From NCBI GenBank assembly GCA_044356295.1, contig JBIKWN010000001.1, positions 1 through 64,000 on the forward strand: 64,000 nt of DNA, in the 5' to 3' direction. The DNA comes from Bdellovibrionota bacterium. Lineage in GTDB: Bacteria; Bdellovibrionota_C; UBA2361; JBIKWN01. Shown one piece after another: positions 30,001 through 36,000 of the stretch (its first letter is position 1; each line of letters opens with the position of its first letter). Position numbers: made by a program.

Positions 30001-33000
30001 TAGGTTTAATTTTTCTCAAACACATACTATTAAAGAGATAGAAAACCTAGTTCGTCTATTTTTCGAATAGAAGAATAGCTTCCTCTCTATTTATTTCTAT
30101 TCTCCTCTCTGTTTCCTGCCATTTCTACTTCCTTTCGAACTTTAAATAATTTAAAGTTCCACGTGGAACATATGATTTCAAATTCTTACATTATCGCAAT
30201 CGCAAACCAGAAAGGTGGAGTAGGAAAAACTACATCTGCTGTTAACATTTCATCTGAATTGGCTTCTAGAGGTCACTCTGTACTCTTAATAGACTTCGAT
30301 CCCCAAGGAAGCGCTACAAGCGGTGTTGGAGTTCAGCTTTTAGAGGAAGGTTCTGACTTGTTCGATGTCTTCTTTGAGAGAGTAACGCTAAACGATATTA
30401 TTCAGCCTACTCAAATTCAAGGACTACACATTGCTCCAGCTTCTAAAGATTTAGTTGGACTAGAAATTGAACTCGGTAAAAAACCTGGGCGTGAACTAAT
30501 TCTAAAAACAGAGATCGCAAACCTTAACAAATCCTATGAATATATAATAATAGACTGCCCACCATCTTCTGGGCTTTTAACATTGAATGCTCTCGGAGTA
30601 GCCCAGCACATTTTAATCCCCCTTCAAACTGAATACTACGCACTTGAAGGTATTTCAGCTCTAATGAATACGATCCATTTTGTTAAAAACACTTTTAACC
30701 CTTCCCTGGAAATTATTGGTGTCTTTAGCACAATGTACGATTCTAGAACTAAGCTCTCAGCCCAAGTTGAAGAAGAAGTGAGGGCGTTTTTCGGTGGGAA
30801 AATGTTTCCTTACCGCGTACCGAGGAACGTAAAACTTTCTGAGGCTCCAAGTCACGGACTGCCTATAAACGTTTACGACCCCTCTTCTATTGGAGCAAAA
30901 GCATATTCCGATGTAACATCGGAGCTTATCATTAGGCTAGAAAAGGGGATAGCAAACCCACAGTCTGCGGCAAACGGATAACAAAGTTCCACGTGGAACA
31001 AGATATATAACATATTGTATTTATTAGATATTATGGAAGACAAAGTTAAAAAAATAGCAAGATCAGGTTTAGGTAGGGGCTTGGCGGCGTTGATATCGCA
31101 GCAACCGATGCCAGTTACCGTAAATAGTGGAAATAACTCAATAAATCTGAATCAGGGCACCTCAATCTCAACCAATTCGAATTTACAGCCAGTAGGTGGA
31201 AAACTTCCTAGTTACTCAGCTCAAGATTTATCAAATCTACCGATTGAAAATGCAACAGTACAATACGTATCGATTGAAAAAATCACGAACAACTCAGCTC
31301 AACCAAGACAAGAATTCGGAGAAGGCGAAATAGTTGAACTTGCAGCATCTATTAAGAAACTTGGAGTTTTGCAACCAATCGTAGTTAGACCTTCACCAAA
31401 GGAACAAGGTAAATACGAAATTGTTGCTGGGGAAAGAAGATGGCGGGCATCAAAGTTAGCTGCGCTTACTTCCGTTCCAGTTGTAATAAAATCTCTAGAT
31501 GACAGGGAAGCTCTTGAAATTGGAATAGTCGAAAACGTACAACGAGAGAACCTAAATCCACTAGAGCTCGCCAAAGCATATAATCGATTAGCTCAGGAGT
31601 TCTCTTTATCACAAGAGGAAATTGCAGACAGAGTTGGAAAAGACAGGGCTACTGTATCGAATATCCTTCGGATTCTTAAACTAAGCCCTGAACTCCACGG
31701 CTATATTAATGAGTCAAAGTTATCTCTTGGACATGCAAAAGCATTACTTGCCATTAAGGACCCTAAAGCGCAAATCTCACTAGGTAAAAAAGCTGTAAAC
31801 GAACAGCTATCAGTAAGGGCTCTTGAAATGCTCGTTAACCGTGTCGCGGTTCTTGATATAGGAAAAGCTCGGCGTTTGAAGAAGAATCAAGAGCAAGACG
31901 TAACAGATGAACTTCGAGAAACAAATGAGAGGCTCAGAAGGGCGCTTGCAACGAAAGTTTCAATTAAAAAGTCACGTGGGGAAAAGGGCTCAATTACAAT
32001 TGAGTACTTCTCAAATTCAGAACTAGATAGAATTGTTGAAAAAATCTGCCTGTAAATTTAGGGCTGTAAATTAGCAAAAATGAAAATTGGTGATGTTTAT
32101 GTGCGCAATCAAAATAATCATGATACTCACTGCTAACTTGCTGAATAATTGACATAAAACCAAAATCAAAATTTGATTTTTTTAGCAGGACAAACTAGTC
32201 TCAGTTAAACGAAATCTACTAAATTTCCCATTATGAGCTTTGGAAAACCTAAAGACGATTCAGACGATAAAAGAAATGCTTCTGCAGCTCTTCGACCGTC
32301 ATTTGGCGCAAATGTTTCAACAGCAGCATCGGATGCAGTGCTTGGAAGAGGATCAAAAGTTGTTGGAGCTCTTACATTCACAGGATCTGTAGAGATAGAT
32401 TGTGAAGTAGAAGGTGAGATTCATTCAAAAGAAAGACTAACTATTGGTGAAGCAGCTCAAGTGAAAGCTAAAGTTCACGGAACTGATGTCATCATTCGAG
32501 GAACTGTCATTGGTGATATCTTCGCTACGAAATCTCTTCAGTTGAAAAAACCAGCAAGAGTAAGTGGCAATATATCAAGTCCGACTTTATCTATCGAAGA
32601 AGGAGTTATCTTTGAAGGTAAATGTGCGATGACTTCGAATACTCAGGCAAGACCGGCCGAAATCAAAGTTGCACAAAACTAAAATTCTAAGATTTACGAT
32701 TTAAGGATCAATGGAAACAATACTAAAGTTCCTCAATATCACTGAGCGCGAAGCCCAAGGAATTGCATTTGCAGTACCAATCTTTTTTCTTTATTGGAAA
32801 CTATTAAACGCATACGTAGTAAAACATTTCGTCGCTCTCTTTGAAGAGAGAGAAGCATTAACTACAGGTGCTCAATCTGCTTCGCATGATACCTACGAAG
32901 AAGCTAAAAAAATCACTGCACAAACAGAAGCAAAAATTCATCAAGCACGAGTACAAGCAAATCAACGCCGTAACGATGAAATTCTAGAAGCAAAAAATGC

Positions 33001-36000
33001 TGCTTTTACTATTGTGCAAGAAGCAGAGAAGGAAGCGGCTAATCATGTTCATAAAACAAGAGCAAGCCTTGATGCAGAACTAAAACTTCTTAATGGAAAT
33101 ATTGAACAAACTGTTAATCAACTTGCTAACGAATTGGCAGCAAAAATTCAGAAGCCAACTTCATCTGCTGTCCAAATATTTGCTCTGATTCTTTCTGCTT
33201 CTGTGTTTTCTATTCTTATAAGTACGCCAAGTTTTGCTTTCGCATCGGAAGGTCACAGTGCGGGTCATCATAGCGGTACCCCTGCAGACCTTATTCCTTT
33301 TGCCGTAAACTTTTTTATCTTCATCAGTCTTCTCATTCATTTCACAAAGAAGCCAATCGCAGATGCTTGGTCTAATCGTCTTAATGCTATCAGTACAGCA
33401 GTTTCAAAAGGTCGTACTGAAATGGAGCAAGCTCAAAAAATTCTTAGTACTGCAAAAGCTAGAGCTGGGTCTGTTGAAACAGAGATTGAGAGAATTAAAT
33501 TTGAAATTTCAAAAGGTGCAAAGACTGAATCACAGGAACTTTTAAAAGATGCACACGAAAGGGCACTTCGAGTTCGACAACAAGGTAAAAGTCTTGCTGA
33601 AGGTGATATTAATCACACGAAAGAAGAATACAGAACAAAACTTTCTAAACTTGTTGTTGAAAAAGCAACTGAGCTCCTTACATCTCAGGTTACAGAAAGT
33701 TCTGATCAAGTTCTGCGAAAAAATGCATTAAATCAGTTTGAAGGTCGAGTAAATACTATTATTCAATAAGGATAGAAGAAAATACCATGACCATACGAAC
33801 AACAAAGACATCAAAAAAATTTGCTAAAGCGCTTTTCGAGCTGTTGAAGCCTGAAGAAATTGAAGCAGTAAATGAACAGTTAAAAAAAGCTTCAGATATT
33901 TTTCTTTCTAAATCAGAACTCCTTTTAGCCCTTGTTGATCCAAGATATTCACTTTCAGACAGACTGCATGTAGTTGAAACTGTCCTTGAAAAAAGTGGGG
34001 CAAATAATATTAAAACATTAAACCTCATTAAGACTCTTACTGAATCCAGAAACCTTTCCGAGTTACAAGCAATAGCTGAATATTTCGATCGATTAGTTCA
34101 AGCACTGAAAAAAAGTCTTCACGTTGAAGTTGTAAGTGCGTTTCCAGTTAAAGCTGAAGAGATTGAGAACCTAAAGTCTTCGATAACAAAGAAATATGCT
34201 GGACTTGCAACTATTACAACTGAAATTGATAAAACATTAATCGGTGGAATGCAGGTAAAGGTCGGAGATAACGTTTTTGATAGTTCAGTTAAAGGAGCGC
34301 TCGAGAAAGTAGGGGCTTCACTGAGCGCAGGAAATTAAAAAAGAAAAGATTTTACGGAGTGAAATAGTATGAGCATAGGTGCAAACGAAATTAGTCAAAT
34401 TCTTAAAGATAAAATCTCGAACTTCGATGCGAAAGCTGAAGTAAATGAGACGGGAAGCGTTATCTCTGTCGGAGATGGTATTTGCCGTGTCTATGGACTT
34501 TCAAAAGTTGCTTCAGGTGAGCTTGTTGAGTTTTCATCTGGTGCAAAAGGAATTGCTTTTAACCTTGAAGAAGACAACGTCGGTATCGTTATTATGGGTG
34601 AGACCTCTGAAATCCGTGAAGGCGATGTGGTTAAACGAACTGGTAAAATTGCTGAAGTACCAGTTGGTGAAGCACTTATTGGACGAGTTCTTGATGGACT
34701 TGGAAATCCAATTGATGGACTCGGAGATCTTAAAACAGACAAATTCAGACGTATCGAAATTAAAGCTCCTGGTATCGTAAACAGAAAATCTGTTCATGAG
34801 CCTATGCAAACAGGCTTAAAATCAATTGATGCGATGACTCCTGTAGGAAGAGGTCAGCGAGAACTTATCATTGGTGATAAAAAAACAGGTAAAACTGCTG
34901 TAGCACTCGATACGATAATTAACCAAAAAGGAAATGGAGTTATCTGTATCTATGTAGCAATCGGTCAGAAAAGATCTTCAGTAGTTCAAGTTGTAGAAAA
35001 ATTAAAAGAACACGGCGCAATGGATCACACGATTGTTGTTGCTGCGACTGCTTCTGAACCAGCTCCACTTGCATTCCTTGCACCATTTGCAGGATGCGCG
35101 ATGGGTGAGTACTTCATGGAAAATGGCAAACATGCTCTTATTGTTTATGATGATCTTTCTAAACACGCTGTAGCATACCGAAGTGTTTCACTTCTCTTAA
35201 GAAGACCACCAGGACGTGAAGCGTATCCTGGAGATGTATTCTATCTTCACTCTCGTCTTCTTGAGCGTGCTGCAAAACTAAGTGATGCAAAAGGTGCTGG
35301 TTCTCTTACAGCTCTTCCAGTAATTGAAACTCAGGGTGGTGACGTATCTGCCTATATCCCAACCAACGTAATTTCAATTACAGATGGACAAATATTTCTT
35401 GAATCAGATCTTTTCAACTCAGGAATTCGTCCAGCAGTAAACGTTGGACTTTCAGTATCTCGAGTAGGTGGTGCTGCACAAGTTAAAGCAATGAAAAAAG
35501 TTGCAGGAACTCTTCGACTTGACCTTGCACAGTTCAGAGAGAAACAGGCGTTTGCTCAGTTTGGATCAGATCTTGATGCAGCTACACAAGCACAGATTGC
35601 ACGTGGTGAAAGACTTGTTGAGATCTTAAAACAAGAACAATACAAACCAATGCCTGTTGAGTTTCAAGTTATCTCAATTCTTGCTGTAAACCTTGGATAC
35701 ACTGATAAATTAGCAGTATCACAAGTGCGTGATTTTGAAAGAGGGCTTCATGCTCATCTTAAAACTCACCATGCAATATTTGTTGAAGCACTTAGAACTA
35801 AAAAAGAGCTTACTAAAGATATCGAGGAAGAATTCAAAAAAATTACTTCTAAGTTTCTTGAAGACTTCTCTGCTGGAAAGACAGAAACAGTAAGTACTGC
35901 TACTTCAAATACTACTGATCAAGCTAAGAAGGCGGCATAAACCATGGCAGGACTTCGCGATATTAAAAGACGATTAACGTCGGTAAAGAATACAAGAAAA

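What a model noticed while it worked through the whole genome (the two positions that open the first line are those of the whole stretch)
32711..33769. ATP synthase b' and b subunits are encoded as one chain joined by a signal-peptide-like linker, a fusion that recurs in [...]
The two peripheral-stalk genes of the F0F1 operon form one 352-codon ORF: b' (1-150), a hydrophobic segment ending in AFA|SEG, then b; there is no internal Met before b. The same in-frame fusion occurs in scattered genomes of the order whose close kin keep two genes, always with an AxA-type site, which suggests a polyprotein cut by signal peptidase.
Evidence so far: g01535 sequence and linker codons; tblastn-type search of 124 class genomes; of 40 loci with both halves, 7 have one ORF of 343-395 aa with both b' and b (G000 and G071 of the same genus, G045, G035, G115, G063, G069: six families), 33 have two ORFs, including kin of the same families as G035 and G115. 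Linker ends: FAFA|S, DALA|A, VAYA|S, SIAA|E, LALA|G, ALA|Q. Two paper searches found no description.
(Added by a program. Inside this text positions count along the whole contig: contig position 1 is position 1 of the stretch shown here. "Call 12" and the like, gene names such as g00115 and contig names such as C1 are that model's own, and its searches are not shown. The text may have been shortened before it was handed on; [...] marks where a part breaks off. The agent that wrote the report below was given it as the finding of a first reader that could run no searches.)

Follow-up and report, generated by a model that had tools for sequence, protein, structure and literature searches.

The report
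ATP synthase stalk polyprotein b'-b
In this uncultured bacterium the two stalk subunits of the ATP synthase are made as one chain joined by an export signal, so the cell probably has to cut the chain twice, which would give membrane proteases known for clean-up a job in building an essential enzyme.

Summary
Confirmed. The 352-codon ORF holds b' (1-146), a signal-peptide-like linker ending AFA|S (147-178) and b (179-352). It is the genome's only b'/b gene, and a contig from a second study repeats the junction. The linker is b's ancestral signal peptide: 147 of 155 split relatives carry one. In the window's class 8 of 109 scorable loci are fused, needing 7 changes on the tree (one clade rejected). 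In a second class the fusion is fixed in 69 of 96 genomes. All 54 fused proteins examined keep the hydrophobic core and Ala/Ser at -1, but have lost the signal's charged start, so the core begins where b' normally ends. b' remains under purifying selection. Most likely signal peptidase I frees b, and a second cut, probably by RseP, frees the end of b', which must reach the F1 head. Both cuts are inferred, not shown. Five paper searches on the fusion, on bacterial polyproteins or on signal peptides of Fo subunits listed no description. The scan noted this fusion before on another genome (e1-2363966).

The parts
32703..32707 (+). Shine-Dalgarno-like AAGGA before the single start codon
   Evidence: read from the sequence
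32711..33148 (+). Subunit b' core, residues 1-146: N-terminal membrane anchor and long stalk helix
   Evidence: NCBIfam b'/b models; PF00430; helix 12-145 with two one-residue breaks in the AlphaFold model
33149..33175 (+). Residues 147-155: short b' tail standing in for the lost n-region of the signal peptide
33176..33244 (+). Residues 156-178: h- and c-region of b's signal peptide, ending Ala-Phe-Ala; predicted signal peptidase I cut between 33244 and 33245; predicted second cut inside or just before the h-region
   Evidence: A178 is invariant in 11 of 11 rows of alignment A2 and at least 90% conserved in 47 rows; site score against controls; the cuts are inferred
33245..33769 (+). Mature subunit b, residues 179-352: His/Gly-rich outer segment, membrane anchor, stalk helix, C-terminal helix; stop codon
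33787..34338 (+). delta (OSCP)
   Evidence: PF00213
34369..38603 (+). alpha (34369-35940), gamma (35944-36843), beta (36874-38310), epsilon (38346-38603)
   Evidence: ORFs; epsilon by PF02823; alpha, gamma and beta named from their sequence and order
59131..59751 (+). Signal peptidase I (lepB), the only PF10502 match of the genome; candidate first protease

Best explanation
One gene gives a precursor b'-[signal peptide of b]-b. b' inserts by its N-terminal anchor and its stalk helix stays in the cytoplasm. The internal signal crosses the membrane and carries b's His/Gly segment outward, and b's anchor stops transfer. Signal peptidase I cuts after A178 and frees a mature b like that of split relatives. 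b' is left with the signal remnant as a second, N-in C-out anchor. An intramembrane protease, most likely RseP, cuts that remnant near the cytoplasmic face, so that b' ends close to its native length and can pair with b up to the F1 head. The result is a b'b stalk at fixed 1:1 synthesis. Shown: fusion, origin of the linker, conservation of the site, loss of the n-region, selection on b', presence of both proteases. Inferred: both cuts (first about 0.9, a second proteolytic release about 0.7, RseP as the enzyme about 0.6).
For: Linker is b's signal peptide: 147 of 155 split loci scored one. 54 of 54 fused proteins keep an h-region and Ala (53) or Ser (1) at -1. Site score of at least 5.5 in 42 of 54 linkers, against 26% of 10,800 shuffles, 1 of 54 b' anchors and 7 of 54 b anchors. 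Linker identity is 32% between G000 and L224, against 75% for b' and 72% for b. The h-region starts a median of 5 residues (range 1-18) after the b' core, against 18-38 expected from simple read-through. In the second class the split sisters end b' in LERKVA or similar, and the fused forms carry the same motif (R/K at position 3 in 59 of 59, A or V at position 6 in 44 of 59) and run straight into the h-region. b' is not decaying: dN/dS about 0.15 for both halves; the b'/b identity ratio is 0.91 in fused and in split forms. b' is modelled as an unbroken helix, not a hairpin. LepB is present; RseP is present in 10 of 11 fused genomes. Subunit c of G000 also has a signal-peptide-like N-terminus. 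E. coli RseP removes remnant signal peptides and takes N-in C-out substrates (PMC10470546, PMC9360617, passages), also behind a large cytoplasmic MBP domain (PMC4597795, passages).
Against: No protein-level evidence of any cut. Signal peptides were scored with my own rule, which favours Ala at -1, not with SignalP; shuffles pass the looser threshold (4.5) 64% of the time. RseP/S2P substrates are described as generally single-spanning (PMC10470546, passage), whereas the b' intermediate would have two anchors. RseP is near-universal (over the cut-off in 9 of 14 control genomes), so its presence only permits the model. b' of fused genomes is slightly less similar to outgroups than the split sister in 7 of 8 comparisons (by 0.006-0.035; b in 4 of 8). 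dS is near saturation. No conserved second-cut motif was found. The 54 fused proteins are not all independent.
Confidence: 0.6

Rival explanations
1. Signal peptidase I cuts once; b' is freed without RseP. Either another protease (FtsH, a rhomboid, a cytoplasmic protease) trims the remnant, or the remnant is pulled out of the membrane as b' zips up with b and stays on as a C-terminal tail.
For: Fits all conservation data as well. The b' intermediate is not a single-spanning substrate. No RseP-specific signal can be read from the sequence.
Against: The h-regions are as hydrophobic as true signal peptides (median best 8-mer 3.0 in both sets), so extraction is costly. Linker sequence and length vary (17-39 residues to the cut), unlike a kept binding surface. 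RseP is the described enzyme for such remnants (passages).
Confidence: 0.25
2. After the first cut b' stays anchored at both ends and is a passenger or is degraded; the stalk is a b2 homodimer, as in E. coli.
For: Homodimeric stalks are the rule in bacteria (PMC12002316, passage). b' is slightly more diverged in 7 of 8 fused genomes.
Against: b' is kept whole in 69 genomes of one clade with the same relative conservation as in split sisters; dN/dS 0.15; 0 or 1 proline in the stalk helix in 53 of 54.
Confidence: 0.06
3. The two subunits are made separately from one frame, by an internal start for b plus a frameshift or other early stop for b'.
For: In-frame GTG, TTG or ATG codons occur in the linker region of all 13 DNA loci tested; 3 of 13 have one with a Shine-Dalgarno-like word.
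Against: The start positions are not shared, and 10 of 13 have no Shine-Dalgarno-like word, G000 among them. In-frame slippery heptamers occur in only 2 of 13, and alternative-frame stops fall anywhere. An internal start gives b' no stop codon.
Confidence: 0.05
4. The chain is never cut and works as a single-chain stalk.
For: The AlphaFold model of the whole chain is confident in both halves and leaves residues 148-194 disordered. I recall that cleavage of FbcH was reported as not needed for function (recalled, not found in the library).
Against: From the b' end to the NF motif of b's anchor there are as few as 36 residues, which would have to run from the F1 head to the far side of the membrane. 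Linkers are shortened, not lengthened. The cut site is conserved while the rest drifts.
Confidence: 0.04

Closest known systems
Heterodimeric b'/b peripheral stalk of F-type ATP synthases (chloroplast PDB 6fkf chains b and p; cyanobacteria, purple bacteria; split atpF'/atpF of deltaproteobacterial operons)
   Same: Both halves match solved b and b' chains by profile; same operon position; split relatives have the same two subunits.
   Different: One reading frame instead of two. No solved chain among the 25 matched covers both halves in one stretch.
Mycobacterial b-delta fusion (PDB 7jg5 chain d; NCBIfam NF009961)
   Same: A natural in-frame fusion involving a stalk b subunit.
   Different: b-delta joins b to a soluble subunit at the F1 head and needs no cut (established knowledge). 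Here two membrane-anchored subunits are joined through a signal peptide.
Bradyrhizobium japonicum FbcH (cytochrome b-c1 precursor), recalled; not found in the library
   Same: As recalled: a bacterial bioenergetic polyprotein in which the downstream subunit's signal sequence became an internal, signal-peptidase-type cut site.
   Different: There the remnant can stay on a polytopic membrane protein. Here it tethers the end of a 110-residue stalk helix that must leave the membrane, so a second step is needed.
Hepatitis C virus core-E1 maturation by signal peptidase, then signal peptide peptidase (recalled)
   Same: Two-step logic: the downstream protein's signal is cut outside, then inside the membrane, to free the upstream protein's C-terminus.
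   Different: Eukaryotic virus and aspartyl protease; no homology. An analogy only.
E. coli RseP clearance of remnant signal peptides (PMC9360617, PMC10470546, PMC4597795; passages)
   Same: The predicted intermediate is a cut signal peptide in N-in C-out orientation.
   Different: The product would be a needed subunit, not waste, and the substrate has a second anchor.

Membership tests
F-type ATP synthase b/b' (PF00430) | Profile match above the curated cut-off | tested here: met
   62.9 bits against 28, two stretches; each half over the cut-off
F-type ATP synthase b/b' (PF00430) | N-terminal anchor followed by a long stalk helix | tested here: met
   helices 12-145 and 201-326, 329-351 in the model, mean pLDDT 84
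F-type ATP synthase b/b' (PF00430) | Encoded with the F1 genes; a and c present in the genome | tested here: met
F-type ATP synthase b/b' (PF00430) | b' and b form the stalk in the assembled enzyme | not testable with these tools
   needs the purified enzyme; no complex prediction was run
Sec/SPase I signal peptide | Hydrophobic h-region | tested here: met
   best 8-mer hydropathy 2.77 in G000; median 3.0 in fused and in split sets
Sec/SPase I signal peptide | Small residues at -3 and -1 | tested here: met
   A-F-A in G000; 53 Ala and 1 Ser at -1 in 54; controls; 54 of 59 matched a strict pattern in the second class
Sec/SPase I signal peptide | N-terminal position with a positively charged n-region | tested here: not met
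   internal; mean net charge +0.7 against +2.4 in split forms. It is an internal derivative of b's signal, not a canonical one
Signal-peptidase-cut bacterial polyprotein (FbcH type, recalled) | Precursor shown to be cut into two subunits | not testable with these tools
   no proteomic data
RseP/S2P substrate | N-in C-out membrane segment with a short outer tail after a first cut | tested here: inconclusive
   predicted from topology only
RseP/S2P substrate | Single-spanning protein | tested here: not met
   b' would have two anchors about 110 residues apart; PMC10470546 says substrates are generally single-spanning
RseP/S2P substrate | RseP encoded in the genome | tested here: met
   10 of 11 fused genomes; missing only in G071, 62% complete

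The most novel reading that the evidence does not exclude
In several uncultured deltaproteobacterial lineages the ATP synthase stalk is matured from a polyprotein by signal peptidase I and then RseP. The intramembrane protease would act as a maturase that creates the C-terminus of an essential structural subunit, a bacterial counterpart of viral core-protein maturation that arose at least eight times.
Probability: 0.55. Interest if true: 0.82.

Novelty: new variant of a known kind. Interest (0 to 1): 0.7.

Why it matters
Protease-cut polyproteins are rare in bacteria, and I found no b'-b fusion in the papers searched. The fusion is not viable as drawn unless b' is released from the membrane, so it predicts a constructive role for intramembrane proteolysis in assembling the ATP synthase. 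It shows a simple, repeatable route to polyproteins: any gene followed by a gene with a cleavable signal can fuse. It also ties the 1:1 synthesis of a heterodimer to one gene. The prediction can be tested in E. coli with existing lepB and rseP tools. It also draws attention to the signal peptides on b and c in these bacteria, for which my one search listed no dedicated paper.

Tried and rejected
Assembly or frameshift error: rejected. Internal start or programmed frameshift: no shared signal in 13 loci. One origin for the window's class: rejected on 18 rows chosen as the 8 fused plus 10 near split relatives (p-AU 7e-53). The first tree was discarded because alpha and beta were mixed up in short loci; it was redone (79 of 109 loci: 23 of the large family f18 thinned out, 7 dropped as too short). 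A genome-contig scan with A1 found nothing. Foldseek against the PDB gave no match at E 0.001 or better, only unrelated coiled coils. No RNA holder was listed. Five incomplete class genomes gave only weak matches (E 2e-4 or worse) or none, so G072, of the window's own genus, is unscored. A motif search for subunits c and a in a script found nothing; c was then found by Pfam. FbcH papers are not in the library. No complex prediction was run: b' with b would pass by likeness to solved stalks. A search of earlier findings by sequence gave nothing. No supplements were read.
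Full report
Observation. The ORF 32711-33769 is as described: 352 aa, one ATG with an AAGGA upstream, between bactofilin and delta in the F1 operon. Residues about 20-148 match b'/b models and 194-345 match b models. It is the only PF00430 locus of the genome, which is 94% complete and has a and c elsewhere on the same contig. Of four runs laid on it, one from another study gives a single contig across the whole junction (32805-33724) with no difference; one may be the source; two do not cover the junction. Full-length fused homologues at 69, 63 and 48% identity exist.

Frequency and origins in the window's class. I anchored on delta, not on score. 116 loci plus the window were examined (117 of 124 genomes); 109 had both halves, 8 fused and 101 split. 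A profile search of the same 124 genomes, which are also the whole phylum, gave the same 8. On a tree of delta, alpha, gamma and beta (79 loci) the label needs 7 changes, all forced by starred branches; a b'+b tree also needs 7. Holding the 8 together is rejected (p-AU 7e-53, 18 rows). Counts of changes do not give direction, but split forms are the majority around each fused row, and the fused b' tails resemble those of their own split kin (for example G035 with G034). Repeated gain is the simple reading.

Beyond the class. A profile of 11 fused proteins against 1.84 billion representatives listed 150 hits, of which 41 are 319-395 aa and cover both halves. One is labelled Myxococcota and two Deltaproteobacteria. 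A scan of named genomes gave 71 loci, 69 with both halves: 4 fused (titles Deltaproteobacteria, Thermodesulfobacteriota or bacterium) and 65 split, mostly Desulfobacterales and kin. In the class of one of these fused genomes, 69 of 96 genomes have an unbroken frame over both halves, 11 are split, 4 are partial and 12 have no match at E 1e-25. Of 70 loci examined there, 59 fused and 11 split fall on two sides of one branch (support 96). The fusion has thus been stably inherited through a whole clade.

What the linker is. In split relatives b begins with its own signal peptide ending in an AxA-type site before a His/Gly-rich segment: 147 of 155 loci passed my score (101 from the class, 54 of the 65 named split loci; 11 were left out because the first domain scored as b). 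Of the 8 that failed, 3 seem to lack a signal and 5 are limits of the scoring. G000's subunit c also starts with such a signal. All 54 fused proteins scored (47 database proteins, 7 genome loci; near-copies left out) keep the h-region and the site, with Ala at -1 in 53. My picker favours Ala, so I ran controls: score of at least 5.5 in 42 of 54 linkers, 26% of shuffles, 1 of 54 b' anchors and 7 of 54 b anchors. Between G000 and L224 the linker is 32% identical while b' and b are 75 and 72%.

The n-region is lost. Simple loss of the stop codon would put 18-38 residues (medians of three split sets) between the b' core and the h-region; the fused forms have a median of 5 (range 1-18). In the second class the split sisters end b' in LERKVA or a close variant, and the fused forms carry that motif and go straight on into hydrophobic residues. 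So the h-region starts where b' natively ends. Kin are not independent, so I give the pattern more weight than its p-values.

Mechanism. b' is modelled as an essentially unbroken helix from 12 to 145, and the linker as disordered. In known enzymes both b chains run as a coiled coil from the a-subunit to the F1 head (PMC12002316, passages; the position of the b' end near the head is established knowledge). About 110 helical residues separate the b' anchor from its end, so that end cannot also sit at the membrane. An uncut chain would need 36-62 residues to return and cross the membrane. A single cut by signal peptidase I frees a normal b but leaves b' anchored twice. b' is not a relic: dN/dS is about 0.15 in both halves (dS near saturation), and the b'/b identity ratio is 0.91 in fused and split forms alike, although fused b' is slightly further from outgroups than its split sister in 7 of 8 cases. 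A release step is therefore needed. RseP is the best candidate: it removes remnant signal peptides, has its active site near the cytoplasmic surface (PMC9360617, passages), prefers N-in C-out segments (PMC10470546, passages) and cuts behind a large cytoplasmic domain (PMC4597795, passages). It is encoded in 10 of 11 fused genomes tested, and LepB lies in the window. Against it, RseP substrates are generally single-spanning, the enzyme is near-universal, and no second-cut motif is visible. Internal starts and frameshifts show no shared signal in 13 loci.

Comparison with what is known. The halves are ordinary b' and b. The mycobacterial b-delta fusion needs no cut. The nearest precedent, the cytochrome b-c1 precursor FbcH of Bradyrhizobium, is recalled and was not found in the library; the analogy to hepatitis C core maturation is also recalled. 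Searches for a b'-b fusion, a bacterial polyprotein with an internal signal, or signal peptides on Fo subunits (listings only) showed no description; the library lacks most subscription journals, and no supplements were read. I had reached my reading before seeing them and do not count them as support.

Verdict. A real, recurrent and in one clade fixed fusion; a new variant of a known kind (bacterial polyprotein cut at an internal signal), with a topological demand for a second release step that makes it more than a gene fusion. Two-cut model with RseP 0.6; interest 0.7.

Noticed in passing
L152:1480-1794 (-), G000 contig C70 near 101.7-102.1 kb, outside the window: Subunit c (104 aa) begins with a signal-peptide-like segment ending in an AFA-type site; subunit a next to it (234 aa) shows none.
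   Followed up: partly
window 38346-38603: Epsilon is only 85 aa: the beta-sandwich domain without the C-terminal regulatory helices.
   Followed up: no
L137 (G047), L041 (G055), L141 (G022): Split b seems to lack the signal peptide in these three genomes, G047 being the sister of the window's family; the signal may be dispensable when b is a separate gene.
   Followed up: partly
L089 (G063), L123 (G014); proteins P0018, P0025: b' carries an N-terminal extension with an extra hydrophobic segment ahead of the usual anchor.
   Followed up: no
loci of family f18, e.g. L079, L138: In the largest genus b' and b are separated by unusually long spacers (about 100-400 bases) and none of the scorable loci is fused.
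   Followed up: no
G121:C148, G042:C64, G024:C289: A second b-like frame of 271-298 aa that also matches the C-terminal part of delta, probably an alternate (N-type) ATPase operon.
   Followed up: no
window 32233-32682: A bactofilin gene sits between parB and the atp genes.
   Followed up: no
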